Positions 21,394 through 54,645 are shown, numbered from the stretch's first letter. The stretch: 64,000 nt of DNA from Bacteroidetes bacterium GWB2_32_14 (GCA_001768235.1 MENK01000001.1:306057-370056), one strand, 5' to 3'. Program-made: numbers and translations. The notes: generated by a model not told the origin, from the sequence alone.

Positions 21394-22195
21394 ATGCAAA
21401 AGGAAGGTGATTCTCTGACACTAGAAAAAAATGATTTTTTATTGAAAAAGTACTGGAGTAAAAAAATGGAAGGGGAGTATATAACCTCCATAGCACCTTC
21501 TGATTTCAAACAAGTTGATACTGATTATAAAGAGGGAATAAGAGAAATTTATTTCCCAAGTGAATTATCTGATCGGATTCTTCATATTGCAAATAATTCA
21601 GATACACGCTTGTATATAATATTACTTGCCGGTACAATGGGGTTTTATTCCAAATATACAGCAAGCAGCAATATATTGATAGGCTCTCCTATTTTTAACG
21701 AAAAAGAAAATAAGAATTTTATTAATGCATTGTTACTCTACAGATGTGAATTGAATACTAAATTATCATTTAAGAATATATTACCAGGAGTTAAAGATGA
21801 AATTTTTGAAACAGTTAAAAAGCAAAACTATCCAATTAAAAAGTTAGTAAGTAAATATGAAAATGAAAATTTTATCTCAACTAAAAAAATTGTTGATTCA
21901 ATTGTTTTGTTGGAGAACATTCATGAGTATAGTTTAATATCAGATTACAAACCTGGATTTGTTTTTTCATACAAACAAGTTGATGGCAAGCTAATTGGCA
22001 GGCTAACCTATGATTTGTCAAAATATGACCCTGAAATTATAAATGACATTATCGGGAATTTAATTTACTTCTTTAGTCAGCTTTATTTTAATACAGATAA
22101 GCCCTTAATAGATATTGATTGTATTAGGACGGAATCAAAAGAATTTCTTTTAAATAAATCTGAAGGAATATCAAGAAAACTTGAGAATACGAATA
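21394..22195 (+). other. N-terminal half condensation domain (C*): C-terminal lobe only, no catalytic His motif
   Basis: KKYWSKKMEGEY..APSDF (the YW..L..lP.D region that normally follows HHxxxDG), RLYIILLAGTMGFYSKYT, ILIGSPI, QNYPIKKLV, VLLENI, LTYDLSKYDPEII. The A domain begins immediately afterwards (WFEEIVNRFPNQIALIE). Confidence 0.6.
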
Positions 22196-25100
22196 TTATA
22201 TCGTGGTTTGAAGAAATAGTTAATAGATTTCCAAATCAAATAGCATTAATTGAAACTATTGAAAGTCAATACAAGCAAAAAGATGTTAATAATAACAACG
22301 AAATATTATCAAAGGTTAAAGAGCATTTCAGCCAGAAGAGAGAGAACATAAATGACTTAAATGTTGTAACATATGAAACTCTTAATAGAGAATCAAATAT
22401 TATTGCGCGATATTTAATAAAACAAGGTGTAATACAAAATCAAATTGTTGCCGTATTATGTGATTCAAATGCCCGATTGATTCCAATTATCTTGGGGATA
22501 TTGAAATCTCAATCTACATATTTGCCAATCGACTATAATCTCCCGGTTAATAGAATTAATCATATTATAAAAGATAGTTGTCCCCGGGTTATTGTTACAA
22601 CAAGTACTATATTTAATTCATTTAAAGGAAAATTATCTGAAAAAACTAAATATATATTATTAGATCAGGTTGATTTTGATGGAACCGATGAAAGTAATCC
22701 CGAATTAACAATTGAAGATAATTCTCCGGCTTATATAATTTATACATCAGGTTCTACAGGAGTTCCTAAAGGCACCATTGTTAATCATAAATCGCTTTGT
22801 AATTATATCGATTGGAGGATCAATTATTATGGTATTACCAGTTCTGATTTAACCTTGCAGTTACTTCAGCATTTTTTTGATGGTTATTATTCAAATTTGT
22901 TTCAAAGTATTTTGTCGGGAAGTACTTTATTGTTGGTAAATGGAGATAGGGTATTAGATTACGACTATATGAAACTATTATTTCAACAGTTTCAAATTAC
23001 AAACCTAAGTATAATACCAAGAATATTAGAAACAATAGTTGAACAGGTAAAATTTATACCTGAATCACTCAATCGTGTTATTGTAGCAGGTGAAACTGCA
23101 TCTGCTCGTTTAATTCAGATTTTAAAAGAATACAACCCTGATATCAGGATTTATAATGAATATGGGCCAACAGAAACCTGTATTGGGATTTTTAGTAAAA
23201 GAATTGATAATGAAGCGAATTTAAAAATTATAGGAAGTCCGATTCAAAATAATTCCGCCTTGGTTATTGATCCGGAATCTCTGGACTTAAAACCAGTTGG
23301 AATAGCCGGAGAGTTATGCATATCAGGATTTAATTTGGCGAGAGGTTATTTGAACAGAGTAGAATATACAGACCAAAAATTTGGTTATCGAGATCATAAG
23401 TTCTTTTATAAAACTGGCGACACGGTGAGATATTTGAGCAATGGAGATATGGAGTTTATAGGTAGAAGAGATGATCAGATGAAAATTCGCGGATTTCGTG
23501 TTGAGATTGGAGAGATTGAATCTTGTTTAAAGCGAATTGAAGAAATTGAAGATGGAATTATAATTCCTGTATCGAATAAAAATGACGATATAGTTTTATG
23601 CGCTTATTATAAAAGTAAGAAAGAAATAGATAAAGAACTCATAAAGGAAAGTCTTGAACAATACTTGCCCGGGTATATGATACCCAATCATTATGTTAGG
23701 CTTGAAGCATTTCCCGTACTCCCTAATGGGAAAATGGATAAAAACGCTCTTCCAAAGCCTGGCTTAGAATCAAAGCAAGAGAAACCTGCCAATAAATTGG
23801 AAATTGATCTTGCTCAAATATGGAGTAAGGTTTTAAAAACTGAAGTTGATAATATAAATATTGATTCAAACTTTTTTGAATTGGGAGGACATTCTTTAAA
23901 TGCAACACTCCTGATATCATCTATATACGATAAATTTGCTGTAAAAATTCCGATGAAGGATTTTTTCAGGAACCCAACTATTAATGGGTTAAAGAAATTT
24001 TTTGAAAATGAAGATGAAATATTGAAAGATATATCAAAACCAGAAAATAAAGAACAGAAAATGAGTCTATCTCCTGCTCAGCAAAGACTCTATATTATTA
24101 ATCAAACTAACCCGGGTTCAACAGTTTATAATATGCCAAGTATATTTCGGTTAGAAGGAGATGTTGATTTAAATAAGTTGCAACAGGTTATTAATAAGCT
24201 AGTTGAAAGACACCAGAGCCTAAGGACACGTTTTTATGTTGAAAACGACAAGATATTTCAAGAGATTTACACTGAATGTAAAGTATTTGTAGAGCATAAA
24301 GTTGTCGATTCTAATAATTTAGAGAATGAAATAGCAGGTTTTATAAAACCATTTAATTTAAACCAGGCTCCATTATTACGTGCCGCAATTTTTAAAGTGG
24401 TTAATGAATTTATATTGGTTATTGATATTCATCACATAATTGCGGATATTGTTTCAATATCGATTTTAATCAAAGAGTTTTTTGAATTATATAATGATAG
24501 AACTGTAGAGGCAATTAATTATGAATTTGTTGACTATATTCATTCAATTTCGGAAAAGGAACACTTAGCAAGAATTAGTGAGCAGGAAAAATTCTGGTTA
24601 GAACTTTATAAAGTATTACCAAACAAATTAACTCTGCCAATTGATTATTCCCGTCCTAAGAATATTGATTATGATGGTGATTTTATTACAATAAAACTCG
24701 ACGATTTTATTTCTAAAGAAATTAAAGAGTTTATTAAAAATAACGGGATAACCCCGTTTATATTTTTTATTAGCCTGTATTACATTTTTCTATATAAAAT
24801 TACCGGTTCAACGGATGTCGTGATCGGATTCCCAAGTATAAACAGGAAAAAAGTAGATTTTCGAAACATTGTAGGAAATTTTCTGAATACAATTCCAATT
24901 CGGTTTAATCATGATTTAAAGAAAACATTTAATGAAATAATACTAGAAATAAGAGATGTTATACTTGACTGTTTCGATAATCAAGATTACCAGTTAGAAA
25001 GTTTGATTAACAAATTAGATTTCAAAAAAGAAGAAGGAAGAGTTACATTAATTGATACGTTATTTAATTTTATACAGGAAAATGACCTAAAGCTTGAATC

Positions 25101-32917: not shown

Positions 32918-33002
32918 TATGTGTTTTCATGGTATTGTGAAAACCTAAAATTGTAAAGTATTATTTCAAATCATTTTATTGCACTCAACATCTCTATTCG
33001 TT

Positions 33003-33959: not shown

Positions 33960-34086
33960 AATATGGGTTCCAAATTTATTTGTAGTTTAAAACAAGTGTT
34001 AAAATTTTGTTTGTCTTTGATTTTTAATCCTTTATAATACATGTAAATATAAATAATAGCAATAACCTGGTACAATAAATAAAATT

Positions 34087-34527
34087 ATGAAAACATCCAA
34101 AATAGCTATAATAAACGGGCCTAATATCAACATGCTGGGAATACGTGAGCCGGAACACTATGGTAATGTTCAATGGAAAACTATAGAACAAAATCTGACC
34201 GAAACGTTTGATACTGAACTTCTTTTTTATCAATCAAACCATATGGGCAATATTGTTGATTACATTCAGAGCCAGTATTTAAAAATAGATGGAATTATTA
34301 TTAACCCGGCTTCTTTTTCAACTATTGGATATCCTATATTAGATGCAATAAAAGCGATTAATGTTCCTTTTGTTGAAGTTCATATTTCAAATATCTTTTC
34401 AAGAGGAGGATGGCATTCAGAATCTGTTTTTTTACAGGATGCCGTTGGTGTGATTGTAGGATTTAAAAATAATGTTTACTCATTAGCAGTACAAGCAATA
34501 TTAAGTTATTTAAATATTAAAAAATAA
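34087..34527 (+). CDS. aroQ: Type II 3-dehydroquinate dehydratase (AroQ/RifJ-like)
   Basis: IAIINGPNINMLGIREPEHYG, QSNHMGNIVDYI, IIINPASFS and VEVHISNIFSRG are classic type II DHQase motifs. Size is 146 aa. Confidence 0.9.
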   Translation: MKTSKIAIINGPNINMLGIREPEHYGNVQWKTIEQNLTETFDTELLFYQSNHMGNIVDYIQSQYLKIDGIIINPASFSTIGYPILDAIKAINVPFVEVHISNIFSRGGWHSESVFLQDAVGVIVGFKNNVYSLAVQAILSYLNIKK

Positions 34528-34532
34528 ACAGT

Positions 34533-35753: not shown

Positions 35754-35769
35754 TTAAAAGCTCAAAATA

Positions 35770-38051: not shown

Positions 38052-38061
38052 TACTGAACAA

Positions 38062-39756: not shown

Positions 39757-39791
39757 ACTACTGCTATAAACAAGTTGTGGGCTGATTGCCC

Positions 39792-41239: not shown

Positions 41240-41251
41240 TTTATAAAAGGT

Positions 41252-43393
41252 ATGTCCACCAATTTTAAATCAAACAATCAGTATAAAATAAAATGGAATG
41301 CAAGCGCCATTTTTTATGAACTTGTTGCCGACAATAATAATGAATTGCTCTTTCCAATAATCAACAGGTTGCATTTTCAGTTAAACAAATACCTTTTTTA
41401 CTACGAAAACAGTTTTTTGGATGCATTTGAGATTCAGTCGAACGAATGGCCAAATTATATAGGACTACAAGCAATTAGAAAAAATAAAGTTATAGTTAAT
41501 AGGGATTTATTTAGCTTATTGTTGCTTTTTAATGGTCAGAATAGTATTGAAACAATTTATAAAAACTTTTCGAAAAAGATAATTGAAATAATGATTATTG
41601 ACCAGGGTGAATGTAAAAAATACAAAACAACTACAAATTCCTTTTCGGGTTTTTTGCGAATTATTAAATTACTTTACAAAAACGATATTTTAAAATTAAA
41701 ATCATTAATTATAAATTCTGAGAATAGTTCAAAAGAATTAATCCAAAATTACTTCAATATTGATGAAATACTTGCAAGAAAAGAGACGCAGGCAATTGTT
41801 AAGGAGCGTATCTGCAAAGTGCCTTGTGATAATACAAATAAAGTATTACTCCTGGGCGATACTAAAGGTTCTGCAACTATAGGATTACTATATCTGGCAA
41901 GTTACATAAAGCAAAATGGTATAAATGTGAGTTGCCGGTTAAATAACTTTTCGTCGAAAGAAACATTAGAACAGGATATTAAAAATAGTATTAATAAGTT
42001 GAACCCAACTATTGTAGGGATCAGTTTAAAGTGGTTTTTACATATAGCCAGAGTGTTAGAAATAGCAAAATATATTAAAGATATTGATAAAAATATAAAA
42101 GTAGTATTAGGAGGAAATACAGCAAGTTATTATTGGAATGAAATTATTCAAAATGAAAATATAGATTATATCATATTGGGTGATGGAGAAGAACCTTTAT
42201 TAAAGTTATGTAAAAATGATACAGAAATTCCAAATTTAGTATCTAAACAGAATAATGCGGTTTTAAACACCCAAATATCATATAGACAAGGTAAAAACAA
42301 TAATAACCATATATTTCTTTCAGATCTCAATGATATTTTTATTTCACGAAAAGACCCCTACTTATCAGATTATTTATACGTAAATACTGGTAAAGGATGT
42401 GATTGGAATTGCTTTTATTGTGCAGGTTGCAGGGAAACACAGATCGTAATATTTAATAGAAGCAATGCTTTTGTCAGAGATATAAATACAATTCGAAATG
42501 ATATTCAAATATTCAAGAAAATAAATAGTACACTGATGTTCGATTTTGATATTCCCACTCAAGATGATGTGGAATTTTATAAGAATATTTGGAAGGGAAT
42601 AGATTTGTCAAGGTATTTTTGTATTTTTTTCTTTTGGGCAGTTCCATCAGATGAACTTGTTGATTTAATTCATCAGACTTTTTTCTACAGCTATCTATAT
42701 ATAGATTTACCGAGTTTTGACCAAGAGAAAAGAATGAGACTTGAAAAAGAAGGATTGACTAAAAATCAACCAACGAATGAAGAAATTATCCATTTTTGTG
42801 ATAAGTGCGAAGAATTAGAGAACATTTCTTTTGGAATTTGTACCATTTGGGGAACCCCGTATTTTTCTATTAAAGAAGCTTCTTCTTCAGAAGAAATAGT
42901 TTCAAACCTGTATAAGAATTACAATTCTTTCATAGGAGTGGAATGTATGAAATTACATGCTCAACCTGGTGCACCTATATTGCGACAGCTTGATAGGTTT
43001 GAAATGTATTCTGATGCAGATAACTATCAGCAATTTTACAATTTTAGTGTGCTAAATCATAAATTAGATAAAGAACAAAAGGATATTTACCCGTATATAA
43101 ATTTTAAAGACTCATTATTACAAAAACAGGTAAATTATTCATTACAAGATATTTCAAATAAAATTCTAAAGTCAATCGAAAATAAAAAATATCTCGATGT
43201 AATAATTGAATCCAATAAGGAAGAAATAGAAAAACTCTACAATAAGGGTATCATTAAAGGAAAAGCTGATAATATTTCTGCAGACAGTTTCAATTCTGTA
43301 GAAGATATAAAGCAAAATAATATGCTGCATGGTTTTGAAAATGACTTGTTTTTTAAATATATCATACAGAAACTTAACGGGCAAATACTCTAA
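41252..43393 (+). CDS. Cobalamin-binding-domain radical SAM enzyme with ~190-aa N-terminal extension (PqqD/RRE-like)
   Basis: B12-domain pattern: KVLLLGDTKGSATIGLLYLASYIKQNGINV, IVGISLKW, KVVLGGNTASYY, GDGEEPLLKL. Radical SAM motif CDWNCFYC (42398..42421). The N-terminal VNRDLFSLLLLFNGQNSIETIYKNFSKK..FLRIIKLLYKNDILKL resembles PqqD-family peptide-binding domains. No DFxF-type tail (ends ..LNGQIL). Confidence 0.8.
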   Translation: MSTNFKSNNQYKIKWNASAIFYELVADNNNELLFPIINRLHFQLNKYLFYYENSFLDAFEIQSNEWPNYIGLQAIRKNKVIVNRDLFSLLLLFNGQNSIETIYKNFSKKIIEIMIIDQGECKKYKTTTNSFSGFLRIIKLLYKNDILKLKSLIINSENSSKELIQNYFNIDEILARKETQAIVKERICKVPCDNTNKVLLLGDTKGSATIGLLYLASYIKQNGINVSCRLNNFSSKETLEQDIKNSINKLNPTIVGISLKWFLHIARVLEIAKYIKDIDKNIKVVLGGNTASYYWNEIIQNENIDYIILGDGEEPLLKLCKNDTEIPNLVSKQNNAVLNTQISYRQGKNNNNHIFLSDLNDIFISRKDPYLSDYLYVNTGKGCDWNCFYCAGCRETQIVIFNRSNAFVRDINTIRNDIQIFKKINSTLMFDFDIPTQDDVEFYKNIWKGIDLSRYFCIFFFWAVPSDELVDLIHQTFFYSYLYIDLPSFDQEKRMRLEKEGLTKNQPTNEEIIHFCDKCEELENISFGICTIWGTPYFSIKEASSSEEIVSNLYKNYNSFIGVECMKLHAQPGAPILRQLDRFEMYSDADNYQQFYNFSVLNHKLDKEQKDIYPYINFKDSLLQKQVNYSLQDISNKILKSIENKKYLDVIIESNKEEIEKLYNKGIIKGKADNISADSFNSVEDIKQNNMLHGFENDLFFKYIIQKLNGQIL

Positions 43394-43513
43394 TAACCTT
43401 AAATAAAGCAAATAATAAAAGTAACAGATTCTATTTATAACCAATCCGTAATGGATTTAGAATGTCAAAATCAATATAAAATTTAATTTAAAAGAGTTTA
43501 AAAATTAGATAAA

Positions 43514-44280
43514 ATGGACTATAATAATGAACAGGATTATTGGCTGGAAAAATTATCAGATACTACTGAAAGATGCAGTTTTCCTTACAATTATCTAACA
43601 AGTAATATTAAAAAAGAACTTTTGTCATTTAACATTGATTTGCCTGCAGATGTTACAAACAAGTTATTGCAAATAAGTGGCGATTCTGATTTTCGATTAT
43701 TTATACTTTTAAAAGCAGGATTATTTTTACTTCTTAACAAATACACGGGGAAGAAAAATATTATTATTGGCAGTCCTATAATGAAGCAGGAAACCGATAC
43801 AAATTTTATTAACACATATTTACCTGTAAAACTATATTTAGATGAAAACCATAGTTTTATAGAGTATTTAAATAATGTAAAAAACGAACTTATTCTTGCT
43901 ATTGATAATCAGAATTTTCCAATAGACACTATTCCCGAGTATCTCGGATTATCTAATCAAATAAAAAACCAAACATTTTTTGATATCGCTGTTTTACTGG
44001 AAGAACTTCAAGATAAAAAATATATAGAACACTTAAAGCTAGACATGATTTTCCGTTTCTCGAAAAAGAATGAAGGAATAAATTTAACTGTTGACTATAA
44101 TGGGAATTTATATAAAAAACAAACAATAGAAAGAATTATATCACATTTATCAATATTACTGGGTAATGCACTTGAAAACAAGAATAGTTTGATTGGTGCA
44201 ATTGAGTGGTATAAACCAGAAGAAAAAGAAAAGGTACTTTATCATTTTAATCAAACCGATAAGAATTATAACCTTGATAA
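43514..44280 (+). other. N-terminal half condensation domain (C*)
   Basis: EQDYWLEKLSD..FPYNY, RLFILLKAGLFLLLNKYTG, IIIGSPIMKQETDTNFIN, QNFPIDTI, FFDIAVLLEE, LTVDYNGNLYKKQTIERI. There is no HHxxxDG before the A domain starts (VLDIFKQACNINPDQ). Confidence 0.6.
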
Positions 44281-47200
44281 TACTGTTCTTGATATTTTTA
44301 AACAAGCATGTAATATCAATCCAGATCAGATTATTGTAAGTTGCGATGATAAATCATTGTCGTACAGGATGTTGGATTTTATGTCCGATCAATTTGCAGG
44401 ATATCTTCAATCAAAAGGTGTGATAAAAGGCGATTTGGTAATTATCAAAGAAAAACCATCTATTGACTTTATAGTTAAGTTGTTGGGAATAGTGAAGTCT
44501 GGAGGAGTTTATATCCCGGTTGATACACAAGCTCCAAATGAACGATTAAAATCGATTATAATAGACTGTAGGGCCAGGTATTTTGTTACTGATGAAAGTA
44601 ATTCTGAAATTTCAGAATTACTTGAAGAGAACGATGTTAATATTATTAATTGCATTGGATCTATGTTGGAATTTGAGTTTAAGCCTGTTTCAATTACCTC
44701 CGAAGATATCATTTACATAATATACACATCAGGATCGACAGGTAAACCAAAGGGTGTAAAAATTTCTCATCGCGGAATATCGAATATGTGTTTTTCTTAT
44801 GTCGATATATTTAAAACCAACTTTAAATCTACAGCCTCCGTTGTTTCTAATCCTGCATTTGATGCAATGGCATTTGAACTTTGGCCCAATTTAACAAACG
44901 GAGTAAAAACATGTGTTGCTCCAGAGAATATAATTCATGATATTAAAATATTGGTTAATTGGATCAATACGAAGAACATTACAACTCTTTACCTTCCAAC
45001 TTCAGTTGCCGAAATTATAATGAATTACAAAACCACAATGCCATCCGTTCAAACTTTGGCAACTGCAGGCGATGTATTAAAGGAATATCCCGGTAACAAT
45101 ATTAATTATGAAGTTTATAACCTATATGGTCCTACCGAAGACTCGGTGTGGACAACCATTTATAAAGTACCTAAAGACAATATTGAAAATCAGTTTCCAT
45201 TAATTGGGAAACCCTTGTTTAATAAAAAAATTTTTATTGTAAATAACGATTGTCAATTATTACCCTGCGGAATACCTGGCGAAATGTGGATTGGCGGGGC
45301 TGGTATAGCTAAAGGATATGTTGGAAATAATAATGAAGAGAAATTTATTGAAACCCCATTTAGTTCAACCGGAATTGTTTATAAAACAGGAGATTTAGCA
45401 TGTTGGCATGATGATGGAAATATTGAGTTTATTGGGCGCAAAGATAATCAAACAAAAATTAGAGGTTTCAGAATAGAACTTGATGAAATTCGTGTATGGC
45501 TTTTAAAATACCCAGAGATAAATGAAGCAGTTGTAATTATTAAAGAAGTGGGGCATGAAAAATATTTGTGTTCCTATTATACATCATTAAAAAATATAGA
45601 TTTAGATGAACTTAAAACACATTTAAAGAAGTATTTGCCCTATTATATGATTCCTAATTACTTTATTAAAGTAGATAAGTTTAATCTTAATAGAAGTGGA
45701 AAAATAGATAAAAATGTATTACCAGCACCTTCAAACATATTAATTGATATTGTAAAACCCCAAAATGATAATGAACAAAAGCTATTTGACATTTGGGCCG
45801 AACTTTTGGGAACTAATGATTTTGGAATTGATCATAATTTCTTCGAGATTGGTGGACACAGTCTGAGGGCAATAAATTTAATTTCTCTTATAGAAGACAA
45901 ATTTATGGTCAAATTTCAGTTTAGAAAAATATTTGAATTTCCAACAATTCGAGAACAAGCTAAGTTTATTGAAACCATAGATACAGAAAAACAACATGAA
46001 ATACTACCTGTTGAAAAAAAACAATTCTACCCGGTTTCTTCTTCACAAAACAGATTGTTCTTGCTTCATCAAATGGAGCCAACAGCAGTAGCATATAATG
46101 TCTTAAATTATATTGAATTGACAGACAAGGTTGATGTTAATGTTTTAAAGAATGTATTTAATATAATTGTTGATCGCCATGAAGCATTTCGAACAAGTTT
46201 TTCGATAATTGACGGACTCCTTTATCAACGAATTCAGGATAACGTAAATTTTGAAATTGAAAAATACCTGGTGAAGAATGGACACGAAAATGAAATGACA
46301 AAGAAATTTACCAGGCCATTTGATTTAGAGAAAGCTCCTTTATTTCGAATAGGTTATTTTGAAACTGAAAAAAATCATCAATTTCTGTTAATTGATATGC
46401 ATCATATTATATGCGATGCAGTTACTCAGAAAAATATTGAGGTTGAGATAAAAGAAATTATTCAGGAAAAAACTTTAAAACCACTACGCATTCAATATAA
46501 AGATTATTCATTATGGCAAAATAGCGAGGGCTACCAGAAGAAAGTAGAAAAACAAAAATTATTTTGGAAAAATAACTTTAAGGGTGAATTACCCAAAGTA
46601 AACCTTCCTATAGATTTTCCACGCCCCAAATTTAATAGTTTCGATGGTGCAGTTGTTTCTTTTACACTTTCTCATGAAGAAACTCAAATAATCAGGTCTT
46701 TGACTGAAAAGTATAAATCTACTATGTTCATGACAATTTTGGGTGTATATAATATATTTTTGTCAAAACTTTCAGGAGATAATCAAATAATTGTGGGTAC
46801 TCCAATAGCCGGGAGAAACCATAAGGATTTAGGCAATATTAGCGGGATGTTTATCAATACGCTTGCTATTAAATCAGATATTTATTTAGATACAAAAATC
46901 GGAGAGTTCTTTTTAGCAACAAAAGAAAACGTAATCAATGTATTTGAGAATCAGGAGTATCAATTTGACGATTTGGTTGGAGAGTTATCATTATCTCGAG
47001 ATACAAGCCGAAATCCAGTTTTTGATGTTATGTTTAATATGCTTAATCATTTAGATTATAAAGATGATGAGCCGGATTTTGAAACTGAACAATCTTTAAA
47101 TCACGATCAAAGGCCATCGAAATTTGATTTAAATCTTACAGCTATCGATTATGGAAATACAGTTTATTTCAATTTTGTTTATGCTACTTTATTATTCAAA

Positions 47201-50200: not shown

Positions 50201-53200
50201 AATGAAAACTCACAAAATATCAAATACAATGATATCAGATCATTAGAAAATACAAATTTAGTATCATTAATAGATATGAATGAGTCGGAATTCATTCATG
50301 TTTCCGGTGTAGCAAAAATTGACATTTCGTTAACAGCTATTGAATTTAATAATTCTTTAATGTGCAGTATTGAATATTGTACTAAGTTATTTAAGAAAGA
50401 AACAATTAATCGGTTTATAAAATATTTCAGGAGGGTAATAAATCAGATTGGCGAAAATCCAAGCCGTAAAATTAATTCTATTGAATTAATTGATCCTGCT
50501 GAAAAAACCAAGTTGCTTTCAATTTTTAATGACACAAACGAGGCATATTCGAAAAACAAGCGTATTATTGATATATTTGAAGAACAAGTTAAAAAAACTC
50601 CTGACAAAGTAGCATTAATATCTTCCAATAACTTTTTGACTTATAAGCAGGTTAACTCCTTTTCAAATCAAATAGCCAGAAAAATACAGGAACGAGGAAT
50701 CAAACATGAAAATATTGTAGGGGTATATCTTGATAGATCTGTGGAAATGATAATTTCAATATTGGGAATATTAAAATCCGGAGCAGGGTATCTTCCAATC
50801 TCAACATCGGACCCAATTGAACGGGTAAACTATTATATTGGAGATAGTAAGATAGATGTGCTAATTACAGACAGAGAAAACGAAATTCAGGAAATAAAAG
50901 CGTCTGTATTGTTAATTAATGATAAGAGTATAAGAGAATATGATGATTCAAATGTTGAAAATAACAGCAATTCAAACAGCTTAGCTTATGTAATTTATAC
51001 ATCTGGATCAACCGGAAACCCAAAAGGAGTAGTTATCGAAAATCATTCAGTAATAAATAGAATTGAATGGATGAAAAGGACTCTTGATTTTACAGCGAAA
51101 GATATCTTTTTGCAAAAAACAACTTTCACATTTGACGTATCAGTTTGGGAAATTTTCGGATGGTTTTTTGCCGGAGCCAGTTTACATGTTATACAACCCA
51201 ATCATGAAAAAGACCCTAAGGCATTAATTTTATACATTGAAAAAAATAAAATTACAATTATTCATTTTGTTCCATCTATGCTGGAAGCATTTATTACTTA
51301 TCTGGAAAGTTTAAATAATTTTAATACGAATTCATTAAAATGCATCTGTACAAGTGGAGAAGAATTAAAACCCGATCAGGTAAGCAGGTTAGGCAAAATA
51401 TTAAGTGATAGCAATAAAATCAAATTGATTAATTTGTACGGACCTACTGAAGCAACGGTTGATGTAACTTATTTTCAATGTCAGTTTAACGAGTTTTATC
51501 ATAATGTCCCGATTGGTAAACCTATTTCAAATACACAAATTTATATACTTGATTATTCGAGACAACAATTGCAACCAATAGGTGTCGCAGGTGAATTATG
51601 TATAGGCGGAGTAAATTTAGCGCGTGGATACATTGGGAAAACTCAATTAACAAAAGAGAAATTTATTGACAACCCATTTTTCCCAAGTGAAAAAATCTAT
51701 TGCACCGGAGATATTGCCCGATGGTTACCAGATGGAAATATCGAATTCTTAGGAAGAATAGATAACCAGGTAAAAATAAGGGGATTTAGAATTGAGTTAA
51801 GTGAAATTGAGAATTGTCTTTTACAGCATGAAGCAATTAAAGAATGTGTAGTAGTAGCAAGAGAAAAACAAAATGAAAAATATTTATGTGCTTATGTAAG
51901 AATTGCAGGCAACAAGTTAGAGATTGATTTTAAAAGTTTACTTACTGACAAGTTGCCAGCCTATATGATTCCTTCTCATTTTATGGTTTTAGATAATTTT
52001 CCATTAACCAGTTCAGGAAAAATTGACCGCAAAGCTTTACCTGAACCAGAAATTGAATTTACACGAGATTATGTAGCCCCTGAGAATGAAATTGATGTTA
52101 AATTAGCTAATATTTGGGCTGATATATTAGGCCTTAGACAATCGGAAATAAGTACAAATGCGAACTTTTTTGAATTGGGCGGACATTCTTTAAAAGCAAT
52201 AGAACTTTCATCGAAAATAAGAAAACAATTTAAGATTGAAATTGAAATTGCAACAATATTAAAAAAACCTATTCTTACCCAATTATCCAGGGAAATTCAA
52301 AATATGGAAAATAATCGGCTTGTATCTATCCGCCCAATTGAAAAGAAAGAATACTATCCATTATCTTCGGCCCAGCATAGAATGTATTTAATGCATTGCA
52401 TAAAACCTGAATCAGTAATCTATAATATTTCACAAACCTACTTGATTGAAGGAGAAGTGAATATTAATGTGATGAATGCAGCATTAGATAAAATCATTCA
52501 AAAACATGAATGCCTTCGTATATCGTTTAATATTATCAATGACATACCGGTTCAAAGAATCAATTATAAATTAATAAAAAAAGTTCAGTACATTGAGTAC
52601 TTTGAAAATGATATAAATGATTTTATACAAGGGCTTATAAAGCCCTTCGATTTTAAAGAACCTTCATTATTCAGAATATATCTTATTAAGAGAGACTTAA
52701 ATAAATACATTGTATTCTTTGATATTCATCATATAATTGCAGATGGAATTTCTTTAAAAAAGCTAAGTGAAGAATTTTTGAAATTAATTGCAGGACAAGA
52801 AATTACTAAATCATATGTACAATATAAAGATTTTGTGTTTTGGCAAAAAGCACAAAGAGAAACTGACAGGTATCAGAAACAAAAACAATATTGGAATGGT
52901 TTGCTTCAAAATAAACCAATAAAACTCAATTTGCCGTATGATCTTCAAAAAGTAGCAAGCCCACAAAATTTATCAGCGATAAATACATTTGAATGTAATG
53001 TTGAATTGTCTGACAAAATCAAAGAAACGATAAAACGATTGAATATTACTCCATATCAATTTTTTCTGTCTGTATTTAATATTTTATTGTCGAATATTTG
53101 TGATCAAGAAGAAGTATTGGTTGGAACGGCAATGGCCGGACGAAATCACTCTGACTTAGATGAGGTTATTGGAATGTTTGTGAATATGTTGTTAGTTGTA

Positions 53201-53698
53201 AATTCGGTTTCACAAAATCGTCATGTTGACGAATTTATTTTAGAAGTAAAAGAGAATCTTATTGATGCTATTGAAAATCAGGATTATCAATATGAAGATT
53301 TAGTAAATGATCTTTCAATAACAGAAGAAAGAGGAGTACATTCATTATTTAATGTTTCTTATGCATATAATAGTTTCGAAAGCCAGTATTTTAATAACGG
53401 GGATTTAAAAATCAGTAAATATGATTTCATAAATCTTACAAGTGATTCAAAATATGAATTAAGTTTATATGGAACACGAATTCACGAGAAATATGTATTT
53501 CAAATTCATTATCGTATTGATTTATTCAATGAAAACACTATTCGTTTTTTAAGTGAATATTTTAAAGATATCTTATTACACATCACTGAAAATAGTAGTA
53601 TGCGAGTAGGAGATATTCCATGTTTATTAAACAAAATTAATAAGAGCTCTGATACAAATATTGAGCCGGGTGACAGTTTCAATTTTTCTTCAAACTAA
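43514..53698 (+). CDS. NRPS, C*-A-T-C-A-T-C-A-T-C (3394 aa)
   Basis: A1 YTSGSTGKPKG/NLYGPTE/YKTGD. T FFEIGGHSL. C HHIICDA (46400..46420). A2 YTSGTTGQPKG/DEYGPTE/YRTGD. T FFRLGGQSF. C HHIISDE (49532..49552). A3 YTSGSTGNPKG/NLYGPTE/YCTGD. T FFELGGHSL. Terminal C HHIIADG (52727..52747). Ends in ..GDSFNFSSN. Confidence 0.95.
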   Translation: MDYNNEQDYWLEKLSDTTERCSFPYNYLTSNIKKELLSFNIDLPADVTNKLLQISGDSDFRLFILLKAGLFLLLNKYTGKKNIIIGSPIMKQETDTNFINTYLPVKLYLDENHSFIEYLNNVKNELILAIDNQNFPIDTIPEYLGLSNQIKNQTFFDIAVLLEELQDKKYIEHLKLDMIFRFSKKNEGINLTVDYNGNLYKKQTIERIISHLSILLGNALENKNSLIGAIEWYKPEEKEKVLYHFNQTDKNYNLDNTVLDIFKQACNINPDQIIVSCDDKSLSYRMLDFMSDQFAGYLQSKGVIKGDLVIIKEKPSIDFIVKLLGIVKSGGVYIPVDTQAPNERLKSIIIDCRARYFVTDESNSEISELLEENDVNIINCIGSMLEFEFKPVSITSEDIIYIIYTSGSTGKPKGVKISHRGISNMCFSYVDIFKTNFKSTASVVSNPAFDAMAFELWPNLTNGVKTCVAPENIIHDIKILVNWINTKNITTLYLPTSVAEIIMNYKTTMPSVQTLATAGDVLKEYPGNNINYEVYNLYGPTEDSVWTTIYKVPKDNIENQFPLIGKPLFNKKIFIVNNDCQLLPCGIPGEMWIGGAGIAKGYVGNNNEEKFIETPFSSTGIVYKTGDLACWHDDGNIEFIGRKDNQTKIRGFRIELDEIRVWLLKYPEINEAVVIIKEVGHEKYLCSYYTSLKNIDLDELKTHLKKYLPYYMIPNYFIKVDKFNLNRSGKIDKNVLPAPSNILIDIVKPQNDNEQKLFDIWAELLGTNDFGIDHNFFEIGGHSLRAINLISLIEDKFMVKFQFRKIFEFPTIREQAKFIETIDTEKQHEILPVEKKQFYPVSSSQNRLFLLHQMEPTAVAYNVLNYIELTDKVDVNVLKNVFNIIVDRHEAFRTSFSIIDGLLYQRIQDNVNFEIEKYLVKNGHENEMTKKFTRPFDLEKAPLFRIGYFETEKNHQFLLIDMHHIICDAVTQKNIEVEIKEIIQEKTLKPLRIQYKDYSLWQNSEGYQKKVEKQKLFWKNNFKGELPKVNLPIDFPRPKFNSFDGAVVSFTLSHEETQIIRSLTEKYKSTMFMTILGVYNIFLSKLSGDNQIIVGTPIAGRNHKDLGNISGMFINTLAIKSDIYLDTKIGEFFLATKENVINVFENQEYQFDDLVGELSLSRDTSRNPVFDVMFNMLNHLDYKDDEPDFETEQSLNHDQRPSKFDLNLTAIDYGNTVYFNFVYATLLFKPESIDRFIIFFKQIINQLNGSDDKKISDIDIVVESEKRKILDEFNNTKSDYPNLTIPQLFYEQVKISKNKIAVVDSDNSITFSELDKKSNQIANMLHHLGVNKGDIIAIMLPASVDLTIYIWGIIKSGGVFLPIDIDTPVNRLDYILSDSNAKFLVSDYQYTSNLTGTNIINVNDSNYNEYESSDIYPNITNSDILYVIYTSGTTGQPKGIKITHKNLSNYYHWVSQKTEVSNNDHILINNVFSFDLVYTQFFSALLGGAKLFLINKNEYLSGDYFTRYTEKQLITCLKMTPSLFSAIIHSKEFNNKTFYSVRSVILGGEALKIEDVKYVYNMYPDIQFIDEYGPTETTIGSVAKIIDFNDYQHIKTSTIIGKPIFNTQVYVLNVNGIKLQPFGIPGELCIGGEGVSKGYINNQELTKSKFIDNPFILGETIYRTGDLVRYLPNGNLEYIGRIDNQVKIRGYRIELHEVEKVILSHEHIKDCIVSVFNANQNNDNILCAYIVYKNRGTRLTDNEIKEYLSLYLPNYMVPVLFIEIDKKPLTLNGKVDKNALPIPDINTEMDFVAPINQIEKKLAEIWADVLAISKNQIGCKQDFFRLGGQSFKASQLTYTISKVFNVKFNLRDIFFHPTIEAQAKLISEAAPILSLNIIAPAKIKEFYDLAPAQNRMFFLQQINPKSTVYNLQYTIKLDEKFAIHSIEEVFKQLVSRHESLRTSFQLINGVPKQIIHNSVDFNIESIDLRNNAGYPVMKPFDLSKTPLFRLYYITDLSGELNLLVDSHHIISDEVSQKILFEEFHEIIANKVLNPVTIQYKDYSEWLKQPDQEIIVREQEKYWLGKLSGDLPRLNLPTDYSRPEIQNFEGASTNFLLNNNELSIINQLSKSLGLTPYMSLLGIYSILLSKLSGSEDMIIGTPFANRNDLHLQKIVGLLLNTIVLRIQPSGDKILLDYFSEIKKNVIEDLENQGYPFSDLVNKLSFQRDASRNPIFDVMFNYVDNSDVVINNENSQNIKYNDIRSLENTNLVSLIDMNESEFIHVSGVAKIDISLTAIEFNNSLMCSIEYCTKLFKKETINRFIKYFRRVINQIGENPSRKINSIELIDPAEKTKLLSIFNDTNEAYSKNKRIIDIFEEQVKKTPDKVALISSNNFLTYKQVNSFSNQIARKIQERGIKHENIVGVYLDRSVEMIISILGILKSGAGYLPISTSDPIERVNYYIGDSKIDVLITDRENEIQEIKASVLLINDKSIREYDDSNVENNSNSNSLAYVIYTSGSTGNPKGVVIENHSVINRIEWMKRTLDFTAKDIFLQKTTFTFDVSVWEIFGWFFAGASLHVIQPNHEKDPKALILYIEKNKITIIHFVPSMLEAFITYLESLNNFNTNSLKCICTSGEELKPDQVSRLGKILSDSNKIKLINLYGPTEATVDVTYFQCQFNEFYHNVPIGKPISNTQIYILDYSRQQLQPIGVAGELCIGGVNLARGYIGKTQLTKEKFIDNPFFPSEKIYCTGDIARWLPDGNIEFLGRIDNQVKIRGFRIELSEIENCLLQHEAIKECVVVAREKQNEKYLCAYVRIAGNKLEIDFKSLLTDKLPAYMIPSHFMVLDNFPLTSSGKIDRKALPEPEIEFTRDYVAPENEIDVKLANIWADILGLRQSEISTNANFFELGGHSLKAIELSSKIRKQFKIEIEIATILKKPILTQLSREIQNMENNRLVSIRPIEKKEYYPLSSAQHRMYLMHCIKPESVIYNISQTYLIEGEVNINVMNAALDKIIQKHECLRISFNIINDIPVQRINYKLIKKVQYIEYFENDINDFIQGLIKPFDFKEPSLFRIYLIKRDLNKYIVFFDIHHIIADGISLKKLSEEFLKLIAGQEITKSYVQYKDFVFWQKAQRETDRYQKQKQYWNGLLQNKPIKLNLPYDLQKVASPQNLSAINTFECNVELSDKIKETIKRLNITPYQFFLSVFNILLSNICDQEEVLVGTAMAGRNHSDLDEVIGMFVNMLLVVNSVSQNRHVDEFILEVKENLIDAIENQDYQYEDLVNDLSITEERGVHSLFNVSYAYNSFESQYFNNGDLKISKYDFINLTSDSKYELSLYGTRIHEKYVFQIHYRIDLFNENTIRFLSEYFKDILLHITENSSMRVGDIPCLLNKINKSSDTNIEPGDSFNFSSN

Positions 53699-53845
53699 AA
53701 AAGTACATCAAAGAAACCATAAGTGTTCTTGTCCTTGTTTATGCGAACAGTTCTAAATAAGAAAAAACAGGTGGTAGTGGTGCCGGGCTTATAAATTTAT
53801 TCGTGTAAGTCAATTTAAACCCTAAAAACAATAAAATTGGAAATT

Positions 53846-54645
53846 ATGAATAATCTCGAATTGAATATTATATCTGCACAACGAAAAAAAGAAAAGGATT
53901 TCTGGACAGGGAAATTATCAGGTAATTGGACTAAAACTATATTTCCTTATGATTATCAAAAAGAACCAGAGCTTAAAAAAATGGATGAAATAAATGAGCA
54001 AATACAAGGAGAGCTTTTTGAACAAATAAATAAACTCAGTAATAATTCGGAATTAAATATATACGTAATATTTTTTGCTGCACTGGCTATTATCTTAAAA
54101 AAATATACTCAAAACAACGAAATAATTATTGGAAGCCCGGTTTTAAAAAACGAATTAGAAACGAATACGATTAATAAAAATATTGTAGTTCGAAGTGTAA
54201 TCGAAGATCAGCATTCATTTCAGGATATTTTAATCCAACAAAGAAAAGAAATTGAAGATATATTCATGCATCAGAATTATCCCTTTGAAAAACTTGTTGA
54301 GATTTATAATCAAAATAATCAGGGTATAGGGAAATTTCCTTTATTTGACATCGCTTTAGTATTAGAAAATATCCACGATGTTAACTATTTACCAATGCAG
54401 GATATAAATATAATTTTTGAACTATGTAAATCAAAAAAAAATATTCAGTTTAAAATTAGATACAATGCAGAAGTGTATGAAAAAGAAACTATAGAACGGT
54501 TAAAAAATAACTACACGCATTGTTTGTCCGAACTAATTGAACATAAAACAAAACCTGTCTCAAAAATTGATATCGTATGTGATTCGGAGAAGGAAAAAAT
54601 TCTTAAATATTTTAATCGAACAGATGTTGATTATTCAACAAAACA
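53846..54645 (+). other. N-terminal half condensation domain (C*)
   Basis: KEKDFWTGKLSG..FPYDY, NIYVIFFAALAIILKKYTQ, IIIGSPVLKNELETNTIN, QNYPFEKLVE, PLFDIALVLEN, FKIRYNAEVYEKETIERL. No HHxxxDG. Confidence 0.6.

What the first reader, a model, noticed from the sequence alone, without database searches (positions are those of the whole stretch)
21394..54645. Three NRPSs begin with a supernumerary half condensation domain (C*) that lacks the catalytic lobe
At 21394..22195, 43514..44280 and 53846..54645 the A domain is preceded by ~260 aa. This segment corresponds to the C-terminal lobe of a C domain, from the YW..L..lP.D region onward. It has no HHxxxDG lobe. The usual IGxPxAGR..G.F.NT motif is altered to IIGSP(I/V)..N(F/T)IN in all three, so they form their own subtype. 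In each case a complete C domain is supplied by a separate upstream protein: the terminal C of 8845, the stand-alone C at 36585, and the terminal C of 43514. C* is therefore not half of a split domain but an extra, presumably non-catalytic, platform on the acceptor module. It is a candidate docking surface for the trans C domains and the tailed tailoring enzymes.
Basis: partly seen in the sequence, partly recalled or inferred. Interest (0 to 1): 0.7.

Follow-up and report, generated by a model that had tools for sequence, protein, structure and literature searches.

The report
Half condensation domains heading NRPS subunits
Three peptide-synthetase proteins in this gene cluster start with a catalytically dead half of a condensation domain. 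It belongs to a widespread class found only where the working condensation domain sits on the preceding protein, and it probably props up the adjacent adenylation domain and may act as a landing pad for partner enzymes that share a short C-terminal tail.

Summary
Pfam places Condensation-HMM positions 188/190/195-456 at the N-termini of the ORFs at 21394, 43514 and 53837. There is no N-lobe and no HHxxxDG. The upstream C domains (end of 8845, stand-alone 36585, end of 43514) are full length. C* also has shortened versions of the two elements that normally reach the N-lobe, the floor loop and the latch.

It belongs to a monophyletic, strictly N-terminal class: 151 of 151 domains are the first in their protein. 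The class occurs in Acidobacteriota/Aminicenantes, Clostridia, Paenibacillus, Desulfobacterota, Omnitrophota and many Nostoc. In 72 of 78 loci a protein ending in a full C domain is encoded just upstream, often with B12-radical-SAM genes in between.

An AlphaFold2 C*-A model superposes as one body on solved C-A didomains, so C* keeps the canonical C-lobe/A platform.

The kind is known: the ACVS C* domain and the Lys2 ADA domain are isolated C-lobes needed for adenylation. The context is new: elongation modules served by a C domain in trans.

Upstream partners (the trans C domain, B12-rSAM, U32-like and MiaB-like enzymes) share a C-terminal acidic-aromatic tail such as ...DFGF or ...DFDF. This supports a docking role but does not prove it.

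Verdict: a new variant of a known kind.

The parts
21394..22188 (+). C* (isolated C-terminal lobe of a condensation domain), aa 1-265 of the 1948-aa NRPS o21394 (C*-A-T-C-A-T)
   Evidence: Pfam PF00668 HMM 195-456 at aa 18-253. C* class by external HMMs, 187.8 vs 76.8 bits. Carries the LLENIH signature.
22189..24015 (+). A-T of the module headed by C* in o21394 (the acceptor module for the terminal C domain of o8845)
   Evidence: AMP-binding and PP-binding hits. phmmer envelopes: A 312-795, T 798-874.
43514..44278 (+). C*, aa 1-255 of the 3394-aa NRPS o43514 (C*-A-T-C-A-T-C-A-T-C)
   Evidence: Pfam HMM 190-455 at aa 2-241. External HMMs 256.4 vs 123.6 bits.
44279..45979 (+). A-T of the module headed by C* in o43514 (the acceptor module for the stand-alone C domain o36585)
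   Evidence: phmmer envelopes: A 255-742, T 749-822.
53837..54640 (+). C*, aa 1-268 of the 880-aa NRPS o53837 (C*-A-T). The start may instead be ATG 53846.
   Evidence: Pfam HMM 188-456 at aa 13-256. AF2 model has a C-lobe fold. The C*-A model superposes on C-A didomains.
54641..56479 (+). A-T of o53837
   Evidence: Pfam AMP-binding 276-623, AMP-binding_C, PP-binding 783-845.
16903..18294 (+). Full-length terminal C domain of o8845 plus a ~20-aa tail ending ...DNDSQDYLL. Presumed trans C domain for the o21394 C*-A-T module.
   Evidence: Pfam HMM 2-446. PHIIADG motif. Tail.
18400..20100 (+). B12-binding radical SAM enzyme (566 aa) with C-terminal tail ...EFEDNFLF
   Evidence: Pfam Radical_SAM and B12-binding. 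Sub-threshold NCBIfam hits to B12-rSAM methyltransferase families. Tail.
20112..21296 (+). Peptidase_U32-like protein (394 aa) with C-terminal tail ...TELNDFNL
   Evidence: Pfam PF01136, partial hit. Tail.
36585..38051 (+). Stand-alone full-length C domain (488 aa) with tail ...SEIQDFDF. Presumed trans C domain for the o43514 C*-A-T module.
   Evidence: Pfam HMM 2-450. HHIISDA motif. Tail.
38041..39756 (+). B12-binding radical SAM enzyme (571 aa) with tail ...IETNDFDF
40070..41239 (+). Peptidase_U32-like protein (389 aa) with tail ...IDAEDFKF
41252..43393 (+). Second B12/radical-SAM protein of this set (713 aa). It has no terminal tail, only an internal ENDLFF 18 aa from the end.
   Evidence: Pfam B12-binding. 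NCBIfam TIGR04190, sub-threshold. C-terminus.
52229..53698 (+). Full-length terminal C domain of o43514 with tail ...EPGDSFNFSSN. Presumed trans C domain for the o53837 C*-A-T module.
   Evidence: Pfam HMM 2-447. HHIIADG motif. Tail.

Best explanation
Each ~260-aa N-terminal segment is a folded, non-catalytic, isolated C-terminal lobe of a condensation domain (C*). It heads an elongation module (C*-A-T) whose working C domain has been moved to the C-terminus of the preceding polypeptide, or to a stand-alone protein. I call this a C|A split. C* keeps the canonical C-lobe/A-core platform that elongation-type A domains depend on, as shown experimentally for the ACVS C* domain and the Lys2 ADA domain. 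With the N-lobe gone, C* has shortened the floor loop and the latch and exposes the face that normally packs against the N-lobe. Most likely (inferred, not shown) C*, or the C*-A platform, is also the receptor for a short acidic-aromatic C-terminal tail ([DE]..[DENQ][FYW]x[FL]-COOH). This tail is carried by the trans C domain and, where present, by trans tailoring enzymes (B12-radical SAM, U32-like, MiaB-like). Tethering would bring each of them in turn to the aminoacyl-S-T of that module, so the residue can be modified on-line before the trans C domain condenses it. Shown: domain identity, the truncations, class membership, the strictly N-terminal position, the upstream full C domain, tail co-occurrence, and the predicted C*-A geometry. 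Inferred: support of A-domain activity, tail binding, and the order of events.
For: Identity. Pfam envelopes cover HMM positions 188-456 only. The PDB profile search aligns C* to TycC6 residues 263-520 and to other C-lobes. The AF2 model of C* matches NRPS C domains.

Loss of the crossover elements. Deletions lie at catalytic His +139..144 and +213..234. The floor loop and bridge/latch of fuscachelin C3 lie at His +146..161 and +226..247 (PMC8097023). Both elements run from the C-lobe to the N-lobe (PMC11546977).

Class. 99/99 and 52/52 C*-class domains are the first domain of their protein, and none follows an N-lobe. The margin over the C-lobe HMM is at least 64 bits. In an NJ tree all 101 C* fall in one split with no canonical lobe. 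The window members are assigned by external HMMs.

Context. 72/78 C* ORFs have an ORF ending in a full C domain within 5 kb upstream: 30 adjacent, 42 separated by ~2 kb of inserted genes.

Platform. The AF2 model of C*-A core (pLDDT 82.6, pTM 0.82) superposes as one body on Txo1, LgrA, SrfA-C and EntF C-A didomains (TMq 0.82-0.86, rmsd 3.4-3.6 A over ~680 columns). A-only structures give TMq ~0.55.

Precedent. ACVS C* and Lys2 ADA are isolated C-lobes, and deleting them abolishes adenylation or incorporation (PMC7884236). The best NCBIfam hit of C* is the N-terminus of the Lys2 model.

Tails. In the window, 7 of the 8 proteins in the three partner sets end in the tail, against 0 of the 12 other ORFs. 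In the survey the strict tail occurs in 44/81 C-ending ORFs followed by C*, 2/34 C-ending ORFs not followed by C* (p=6e-7), 0/74 T-ending ORFs (p=2e-16), and 23/30 rSAMs upstream of C*. Tails within one set resemble each other more than shuffled pairs do (69 vs 57.4 identical positions, p~3.5e-4).

The rSAM acts on this module. In other genomes the A domain of the C*-A-T module is itself interrupted by a Radical_SAM+B12 insert (15/75 modules have a long A domain).
Against: Three of the ten C|A junctions without C* still carry FGF/FEF tails (L001, L021, L025). The receptor could therefore be the A domain or the C-A linker rather than C*. 43/75 C* modules have no rSAM gene or insert. The Nostoc cupin-8 and aminotransferase neighbours show no clear tail. 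rSAM 41252 lacks a terminal tail. Mutual information between tail and C* columns was dominated by phylogeny. The tail statistics are not corrected for relatedness of loci. The loci were found with a C*-specific peptide pattern, and the survey HMMs were home-made. The AF2 geometry may reflect training on C-A structures and the canonical C-lobe-A rows in the alignment.
Confidence: 0.55

Rival explanations
1. C* is only a structural helper of the A domain, retained because elongation-type A domains need the C-lobe. The shared tails dock somewhere else (A core, C-A linker, T domain, or each other) or serve another purpose.
For: The ACVS C* and Lys2 ADA precedent concerns adenylation only. The model shows the canonical C-lobe/A packing. 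Three tail-bearing C|A junctions have no C*. Most C* modules have no tailoring enzyme nearby.
Against: Tails are far more frequent before C* ORFs than elsewhere. C* is strictly N-terminal and always follows a C-ending protein. C*-specific conserved residues (N147, L175, E177, I179, H180, F196 in o53837 numbering) sit next to the trimmed latch, on the face left bare by loss of the N-lobe. Conservation at 175-180 is partly circular, because the loci were found with that motif.
Confidence: 0.3
2. The C*-A-T proteins are initiation modules of separate assembly lines, as in ACVS or ThdA. The upstream terminal C domains would then be chain-releasing or otherwise unrelated domains.
For: All previously described C*/ADA domains sit in initiation modules or stand-alone reductases. 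6/78 C* ORFs have no C-ending ORF upstream.
Against: 72/78 have a co-oriented C-ending ORF directly upstream. In the window the chain of NRPS and PKS genes has no release domain at these points, and o53837 (C*-A-T) is followed by a PKS starting with KS. The matched tails argue for partnership.
Confidence: 0.06
3. C* is an evolutionary leftover of a gene split or tailoring-gene insertion and has no function of its own.
For: Gene insertions of about 2 kb sit exactly at this junction in 42 loci.
Against: The class is conserved from a fixed start (aromatic-Trp pair at aa ~23) across at least seven phyla, at ~30% identity and with its own invariant residues. The models are confident.
Confidence: 0.05
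4. C* is the C-terminal half of a naturally split C domain and pairs with an N-lobe supplied in trans.
For: The truncation point lies at the lobe boundary that is used for engineered XUC splits (own knowledge).
Against: No N-lobe-only ORF or protein end was found in the window or in 78 loci. Every upstream C domain has both lobes. The floor loop and latch, which hold the N-lobe, are trimmed in C*.
Confidence: 0.02

Closest known systems
C* domain of ACV synthetase module 1 and ADA (adenylation-activating) domain of Lys2-type alpha-aminoadipate reductases (Iacovelli 2021, PMC7884236; Kalb 2015 as cited there)
   Same: About 230-300 aa at the N-terminus, directly before an A domain. Superposes on the C-lobe only. 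No N-lobe and no HHxxxDG. Non-catalytic for condensation. The best NCBIfam hit of the window's C* is the N-terminus of the Lys2 model.
   Different: Those domains head initiation modules or stand-alone reductases that activate alpha-aminoadipate, with no upstream C domain. Here C* heads elongation modules with three different A-domain codes, is preceded by a full trans C domain, retains motifs C5-C7 in altered form, and is coupled to partner tails. Need for adenylation was not tested here.
Truncated 'C*' domains noted in fungal NRPSs (FmqC, per PMC10212144) and the bacterial loading module of ThdA (PMC7253712)
   Same: N-terminal truncated C domain before the first A domain, presumed inactive. 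It has been suggested to influence the A domain.
   Different: Those are loading modules, were annotated in passing, are not defined as a class, and have no trans C domain or tail partners.
X domain of glycopeptide NRPSs and the interface (I) domain of beta-hydroxy-Asp siderophore NRPSs (X domain structures 4TX2/4TX3; I domain cited in antiSMASH 8; details from my own knowledge, since the Reitz 2019 paper is not held)
   Same: Catalytically dead members of the C-domain superfamily, proposed or shown to recruit trans-acting tailoring enzymes to carrier-bound substrates.
   Different: As I recall, those are full two-lobe C-like domains placed inside the assembly line. C* is a single lobe and strictly N-terminal. 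Its constant partner is a working C domain, and tailoring enzymes are optional.
NRPS docking systems: COM domains, beta-hairpin docking domains with short C-terminal peptides, and the PCP-like adaptor of TomB (PMC11546977, PMC11186497; beta-hairpin type from own knowledge)
   Same: An N-terminal element on the downstream protein is paired with a short C-terminal element on the upstream protein. Tails within one partner set are alike, which suggests a specificity code.
   Different: Known systems join T (or E) to C. This one joins C to A. The candidate receptor is a 260-aa half C domain, and the same tail is also found on non-NRPS tailoring enzymes. Binding is unproven.
Engineered XUC / type S splits inside C domains (own knowledge)
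   Same: The unit C-lobe-A-T begins at the same lobe boundary.
   Different: In XUC units the upstream partner ends in an N-lobe only, and the two lobes re-form one C domain. Here the upstream partner has a complete C domain.
DscE, the B12-radical SAM C-methyltransferase of the discodermin NRPS pathway (PMC12858407)
   Same: A B12-rSAM enzyme encoded in an NRPS cluster and modifying non-ribosomal residues.
   Different: DscE was shown to act on the released peptide. Here gene position, tails and A-domain-embedded rSAM inserts point to action on the carrier-bound residue. This is untested.

Membership tests
Catalytic NRPS condensation domain (PF00668, full length) | N-terminal lobe with motifs C1-C3, including the catalytic HHxxxDG | tested here: not met
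   Pfam envelopes start at HMM positions 188-195. There is no HH...D in the segments. There is no room upstream.
Catalytic NRPS condensation domain (PF00668, full length) | C-terminal lobe (motifs C5-C7 region) with the CAT-like fold | tested here: met
   HMM 188-456 matched above the gathering score (56-111 bits vs 30.6). PDB profile hits to C-lobes. Foldseek hits to C domains.
Catalytic NRPS condensation domain (PF00668, full length) | Floor loop and latch crossing over to the N-lobe | tested here: not met
   Both regions are shortened (deletions at His +139..144 and +213..234), compared with the positions published for fuscachelin C3.
Isolated C-lobe domains (ACVS C* / Lys2 ADA) | About 200-300 aa directly N-terminal to an A domain, at the protein N-terminus | tested here: met
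   The same holds for 151/151 class members.
Isolated C-lobe domains (ACVS C* / Lys2 ADA) | Corresponds to the C-lobe only and lacks the active-site motif | tested here: met
Isolated C-lobe domains (ACVS C* / Lys2 ADA) | Required for adenylation by the adjacent A domain | not testable with these tools
   Only indirect support: the AF2 C*-A model keeps the canonical C-lobe/A-core packing.
Isolated C-lobe domains (ACVS C* / Lys2 ADA) | Sequence relationship to the ADA/ACVS C* domains themselves | tested here: inconclusive
   The best NCBIfam hit is TIGR03443 (Lys2), profile positions 2-222, E 2e-16. It is far below that model's whole-protein cut-off and only slightly better than the generic NRPS models. 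No joint phylogeny was made.
Isolated C-lobe domains (ACVS C* / Lys2 ADA) | Initiation-module or stand-alone context (no upstream C domain) | tested here: not met
   A full C domain is encoded upstream in the window and in 72/78 loci.
Naturally split C domain (N-lobe | C-lobe) | The upstream partner ends in, or is, an N-lobe without a C-lobe | tested here: not met
   All upstream C domains carry both lobes. None of the 99 C* is preceded by an N-lobe.
Recruiting C-like domains (X domain, interface domain) | Complete two-lobe C-like fold with a degenerate active site, embedded in the module | tested here: not met
   C* is a single lobe at the N-terminus. The definition of these families is from my own knowledge.
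Recruiting C-like domains (X domain, interface domain) | Binds a trans tailoring enzyme | not testable with these tools
   Only gene adjacency, shared tails and A-domain-embedded rSAM inserts.
NRPS docking-domain pairs | Cognate N-terminal and C-terminal elements that co-occur at subunit junctions | tested here: met
   Tail vs C* association: 44/81 against 2/34 and 0/74. In the window, 7 of 8 set members against 0 of 12 others.
NRPS docking-domain pairs | Physical binding between the two elements, with partner specificity | tested here: inconclusive
   Tails within a set are more alike than chance, but this is not corrected for phylogeny. The MI analysis was confounded. There are three tail-bearing junctions without C*.

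The most novel reading that the evidence does not exclude
C* is the receptor of a new type of NRPS docking system. A single N-terminal half condensation domain would act as a hub that reads a portable C-terminal address tag (acidic stretch + [FYW]x[FL]). The tag is shared by the trans-acting C domain and by unrelated anaerobic tailoring enzymes (B12-radical SAM, MiaB-like rSAM, U32-like). These would then take turns on the aminoacyl-S-T before condensation. Small differences between tails would sort partners among the many C* modules of one genome.
Probability: 0.4. Interest if true: 0.8.

Novelty: new variant of a known kind. Interest (0 to 1): 0.62.

Why it matters
Isolated C-lobes (ACVS C*, Lys2 ADA) are known only as oddities of initiation modules. 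This analysis shows a large, conserved class that marks a specific natural way of cutting an NRPS module between C and A. The class spans at least seven bacterial phyla, with up to a dozen or more copies in single Aminicenantes genomes.

If C* stabilises the A domain and also receives the partner tails, three things follow. First, it offers a natural, portable split point and tag for NRPS engineering, comparable to XUC and type S designs. Second, it explains how oxygen-independent tailoring enzymes are brought to carrier-bound amino acids in anaerobes. Third, it gives genome miners a simple rule: a C-ending protein with a DFGF-like tail, optional tail-bearing enzymes, then C*-A-T. That rule orders subunits and assigns tailoring enzymes to modules.

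Tried and rejected
1. Split-domain reading. I looked for N-lobe-only proteins or protein ends with a home-made N-lobe HMM in the window and in 78 loci. None was found.

2. Direct test of tail binding. It was not counted.

3. Contact inference. Mutual information between tail positions and C* columns over 105 pairs gave high z-scores spread across the whole domain. These were driven by clade differences (Nostoc against the rest). I judged the result uninformative.

4. Family size. The search of 1.84 billion representatives with the C* profile returned 20,383 proteins at E<=1e-30, but the ranking is dominated by giant multi-C-domain NRPSs, so no count of C* can be read from it. I used it only to show that 52/52 C*-class domains among the best 150 are N-terminal.

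5. Mutual exclusivity of stand-alone and A-embedded rSAM. Not found: 6 modules have both (Fisher p=0.53).

6. Same substrate for the three C*-A modules. Rejected: the hand-extracted specificity residues differ.

7. Literature. Ten full-text searches found no description of a C|C*-A junction or of the tail. The Reitz 2019 interface-domain paper is not held. Absence from this library is not proof of novelty.

8. COM-domain paper on bacillomycin. It turned out not to concern C|A junctions.


Full report
**Setting.** The window is a low-GC (about 29%) hybrid NRPS/PKS gene cluster with all genes on the + strand. An identical region is present in NCBI assembly GCA_001768285.1 and in groundwater metagenome assemblies.

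Domain content from Pfam and phmmer:
- o74: ...A-T-C, cut by the window edge.
- o8845: C-T-C-A-T-C-A-T-C.
- 18400: B12-radical SAM.
- 20112: Peptidase_U32-like.
- o21394: C*-A-T-C-A-T.
- o27322: PKS.
- 31832-36580: four sugar-type genes.
- o36585: stand-alone C domain.
- 38041: B12-rSAM.
- 40070: U32-like.
- 41252: second B12-rSAM.
- o43514: C*-A-T-C-A-T-C-A-T-C.
- o53837: C*-A-T.
- o56494: PKS.
- From about 62.3 kb: an NRPS that starts with a normal full C domain.

**1.
- Scanned alone, the first 300 residues of o21394, o43514 and o53837 match PF00668 only over HMM positions 195-456, 190-455 and 188-456 of 456 (E 3e-15, 7e-24, 6e-32). AMP-binding follows immediately.
- In a MAFFT alignment with the ten full or near-full C domains of the window, the three segments begin just after the C4 motif, at the conserved (Y/F)W..(L/M) helix. 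They have no counterpart of C1-C3 or HHxxxDG.
- The intergenic gaps upstream are 98, 120 and 139 bp, so no N-lobe is hidden there.
It is a 6-8-residue deletion that removes the 'GR......G' stretch.
- The three upstream C domains are complete (HMM 2-446, 2-450, 2-447) and retain the catalytic histidine.

**2. What the segment is.**
- A profile of C* sequences aligns to the C-lobes of solved C domains, for example TycC6 2JGP residues 263-520. It shows the same two gaps.
- Measured from the catalytic His of the window's full C domains, the gaps fall at +139..144 and +213..234. In fuscachelin C3 the floor loop is A2843-L2858 and the bridge/latch is R2923-T2944, with H2697 as the catalytic residue. 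That is +146..161 and +226..247 (PMC8097023).
- Both elements are the crossovers from the C-lobe to the N-lobe (PMC11546977; PMC11186497). So C* lacks the N-lobe and has also shed the parts whose only role is to hold it. This mapping rests on offsets, not on a structural superposition.
- AlphaFold2 models support this. C* alone gives pLDDT 73.6 and pTM 0.71, and its best PDB matches are NRPS C domains. C* plus the A core (aa 1-690 of o53837) gives pLDDT 82.6 and pTM 0.82.
- The didomain model superposes as a single body on solved C-A didomains: Txo1 6OZV/6P4U (TMq 0.84-0.85, rmsd 3.6 A over about 685 columns), LgrA 6MFY (0.85, 3.4 A), SrfA-C (0.82) and EntF (0.85). A-domain-only structures reach TMq of about 0.55.
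- C* is therefore predicted to sit on the A core where a canonical C-lobe sits. Caveat: the alignment was shallow and included canonical C-lobe-A rows, and AlphaFold was trained on such structures.

**3. It is a class, not three accidents.**
- A database search with the three-sequence profile returned about 25 proteins. All start with Met, carry the aromatic-Trp pair (YW) at residue ~23 and 'LLENIH' at ~177, and have no HH...D. They score far above the first full-length C domain in the list (235-142 bits against 100 or fewer).
- A scan of one genome per GTDB species with the pattern [DE]x[AV][VL]LLENIH found 107 relatives. Of these, 78 loci were fetched. They come from Aminicenantes and other Acidobacteriota, Deferrimicrobium and Desulfarculus, Clostridia and Halanaerobiales MAGs, Omnitrophota, Actinomycetota and Pseudomonadota MAGs, Paenibacillus profundus and P. 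lutrae, and many Nostoc, Calothrix and Brasilonema.
- I parsed all loci with HMMs built from the window's own domains. 99 of 99 C*-class domains are the first domain of their ORF, none follows an N-lobe, and each beats the canonical C-lobe model by at least 64 bits.
- Among the 150 best proteins of a 1.84-billion-representative search, 52 of 52 C*-class domains are again N-terminal.
- In a neighbour-joining tree of 233 lobes, all 101 C* fall on one side of a split that contains no canonical lobe.
- HMMs trained only on non-window sequences place the three window segments in the class.
- Residues conserved in C* but rare in canonical lobes include N147 (HQDYP becomes NQNYP), L175, E177, I179, H180 and F196 in o53837 numbering. 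Conservation at 175-180 is inflated by the way the loci were found.

**4. Constant context.**
- 72 of 78 C* ORFs with enough upstream sequence have, within 5 kb on the same strand, an ORF that ends in a full C domain or is a stand-alone C domain. In 30 cases it is directly adjacent. In 42 it is separated by a median of about 2 kb of inserted genes.
- The inserted genes are mostly B12-radical SAM, sometimes with a U32-like gene (L011, L037) or a MiaB-like rSAM (L018). In Nostoc they are a cupin-8/JmjC protein and a class III aminotransferase.
- Of 75 complete first modules, 23 have such an rSAM/U32 gene upstream, 15 have an interrupted or over-long A domain, 6 have both and 43 have neither.
- The one insert I checked (L013) is a Radical_SAM plus B12-binding domain inside the A domain. 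This fusion shows that the rSAM chemistry belongs to this very module.
- The constant partner of C* is thus the trans C domain. The tailoring enzymes are frequent but optional.

**5. The tails.**
- Window C-termini: o8845 ...DNDSQDYLL, rSAM 18400 ...EFEDNFLF, U32 20112 ...TELNDFNL, C 36585 ...SEIQDFDF, rSAM 38041 ...IETNDFDF, U32 40070 ...IDAEDFKF, o43514 ...EPGDSFNFSSN.
- That is 7 of the 8 proteins encoded between (and including) a terminal C domain and the next C*. None of the 12 other ORFs has it. By my hypergeometric count the chance of this is about 1e-4.
- The same holds across phyla...EEGDFGF...DFSF...DFDF...EFNF and ...TFRF on C-ending NRPSs, stand-alone C domains, rSAMs and U32-like proteins upstream of C*.
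- Counting unique ORFs, a strict tail ([DEQNGST][FWY]x[FLW] at the C-terminus) is present in:
  - 44/81 C-ending ORFs followed by C*;
  - 2/34 C-ending ORFs not followed by C* (p=6e-7);
  - 0/74 T-ending ORFs (p=2e-16);
  - 23/30 rSAMs upstream of C*.
- Most of the remaining C-ending ORFs followed by C* are the Nostoc type, with the motif a few residues in from the end (...SFDWELAATF).
- Tails belonging to one C* resemble each other more than shuffled pairs do (69 against 57.4 identical positions in 26 pairs, p about 3.5e-4). In the window, DFDF, DFDF and DFKF go with o43514, while DYLL, NFLF and DFNL go with o21394.
- These statistics treat related loci as independent, so they overstate significance.

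**6. Limits of the docking reading.**
- Ten C|A junctions in the loci have no C*. Three of them (L001, L021, L025) still carry ...KFGF...DFEF or ...QFGF tails, and the next ORF begins with only the normal C-A linker. The receptor may therefore lie in the A domain or linker.
- The Nostoc cupin and aminotransferase show no clear tail, and rSAM 41252 has none at its end.
- A covariation analysis was confounded by phylogeny.

**7. Comparison with what is known.**
- The kind of domain is known and even carries the same name. [quoted passage not shown] Deleting it abolishes incorporation of aminoadipate. They equate it with the ADA domain of Lys2-type reductases, which is required for adenylation (PMC7884236). 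Consistently, the best NCBIfam hit of the window's C* is the N-terminal 220 positions of the Lys2 model.
- Truncated C* domains have also been noted in a fungal NRPS and in the ThdA loading module.
- What I did not find described, within the limits of this library, is threefold:
  - C* on elongation modules that are served by a complete C domain in trans;
  - the size and strict rules of this class;
  - the shared tails.
- The X and interface domains are functional analogues (recruiting C-like domains), but as I recall they are two-lobed and internal.
- Known docking pairs join T or E to C, not C to A.
- DscE shows that B12-rSAM enzymes do modify non-ribosomal peptides, although there on the free peptide.

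**8. Mechanism proposed.**
- Shown: an isolated, trimmed C-lobe fused to A; a canonical predicted C-lobe/A packing; a full C domain and tail-bearing enzymes encoded just upstream.
- Inferred: when a module is cut between C and A, the A domain keeps a private copy of the C-lobe as its platform. The displaced C domain is tethered back by a 15-25-residue acidic linker ending in an aromatic tail. Tailoring enzymes that must act on the aminoacyl-S-T before condensation use the same tail.
- Cutting C away from A-T may open the time window that slow radical chemistry needs.
- I put about 0.95 on the identity and class, about 0.6 on the ADA-like platform role, and about 0.4-0.45 on C* itself being the tail receptor.

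**Verdict.** This is a new variant of a known kind. It would be of real interest to NRPS enzymologists and engineers, mainly because of the conserved C|C*-A junction rule and the shared tails.

Noticed in passing
window 18268-18291, 20074-20097, 21270-21293, 38025-38048, 39730-39753, 41213-41236, 53663-53695; also L008-L058: Seven proteins encoded upstream of the three C* ORFs end in a shared acidic-aromatic tail (DYLL, NFLF, DFNL, DFDF, DFDF, DFKF, SFNFSSN). The same tail (typically ...EEGDFGF) ends C-terminal-C NRPSs, stand-alone C domains, rSAMs and U32-like proteins upstream of C* in other phyla.
   Followed up: yes
L013:11168-12880 (also L012, L025, L029, L033, L034, L040, L042, L043, L050, L052, L054): A domains of C*-A-T modules are interrupted after about 120 aa by a ~560-aa insert. 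In L013 the insert is a Radical_SAM domain followed by a B12-binding domain, the reverse order of the stand-alone enzymes. I am not aware of an rSAM embedded in an adenylation domain having been described.
   Followed up: partly
window 18400-21296 and 38041-41239: Twice, a B12-radical SAM gene is paired with a Peptidase_U32-like gene (partial Pfam match only, no NCBIfam hit). From my own knowledge, U32-family proteins include O2-independent hydroxylases (UbiU/V, RlhA, TrhP). The pair may therefore be an anaerobic methylation/hydroxylation couple acting on carrier-bound residues.
   Followed up: partly
L018:5404-6726: A 441-aa UPF0004 + Radical_SAM (MiaB/RimO-like) protein with a ...DEGDFGF tail sits between a C-ending NRPS and a C*-A ORF. 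The tail is thus also found on a methylthiotransferase-type rSAM. A 421-aa tail-bearing ORF in L033 (6795-8057) has no Pfam hit.
   Followed up: partly
window 31832-36580: GFO/IDH/MocA oxidoreductase, ROK kinase, DegT-type aminotransferase and HAD phosphatase lie in a row just before the stand-alone C domain. From memory, the set resembles kanosamine (NtdABC plus glucokinase) biosynthesis and may supply an amino sugar to the assembly line. A GFO/IDH/MocA gene is also present in the related locus L003.
   Followed up: no
window 8845-10550: o8845 begins with a C domain that matches only Pfam HMM positions 2-370 of 456. It lacks the last ~85 positions, the opposite truncation to C*. It is followed by a T domain with no A domain between them (C-T-C-A-T...).
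   Followed up: no
L001:8710-9666 and 9663-10916: In one MAG the C* is a separate 318-aa protein that ends just inside the A-domain N-terminus. It is followed by a DUF3326 gene and then an NRPS whose N-terminal A domain appears truncated at its start. The preceding NRPS ends ...ISQITFRF.
   Followed up: partly
L071:6358-9951 and about 20 other cyanobacterial loci: In Nostoc and relatives the genes between the stand-alone C domain and C*-A-T are a cupin-8/JmjC protein and a class III aminotransferase instead of rSAMs. The stand-alone C domain carries the aromatic motif a few residues from its end (...SFDWELAATF). Cupin-8 proteins were predicted to be amino-acid hydroxylases in the laxaphycin cluster (PMC7524897).
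   Followed up: partly
L001, L021, L025 (junctions at L001:5160, L021:17383, L025:6466): Three C|A junctions have FGF/FEF tails on the C-ending protein but no C* on the next ORF, which starts with the ordinary C-A linker. This is the main observation that does not fit C* as the sole tail receptor.
   Followed up: partly
window 21330-21393, 43450-43513, 53780-53845: No Shine-Dalgarno-like sequence precedes the three C* ORFs. The upstream regions are AT-rich.
   Followed up: no
window 41252-43393: The third B12/rSAM protein (713 aa; best NCBIfam match TIGR04190, sub-threshold) differs from the other two. It has a ~200-aa N-terminal extension and no terminal tail, only ENDLFF 18 residues from its end.
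   Followed up: no
window 2902-8552: A NACHT-like NTPase, a thioredoxin-like protein with an N-terminal hydrophobic segment, and a MacB/FtsX-type permease separate the NRPS at the left edge (o74) from o8845.
   Followed up: no
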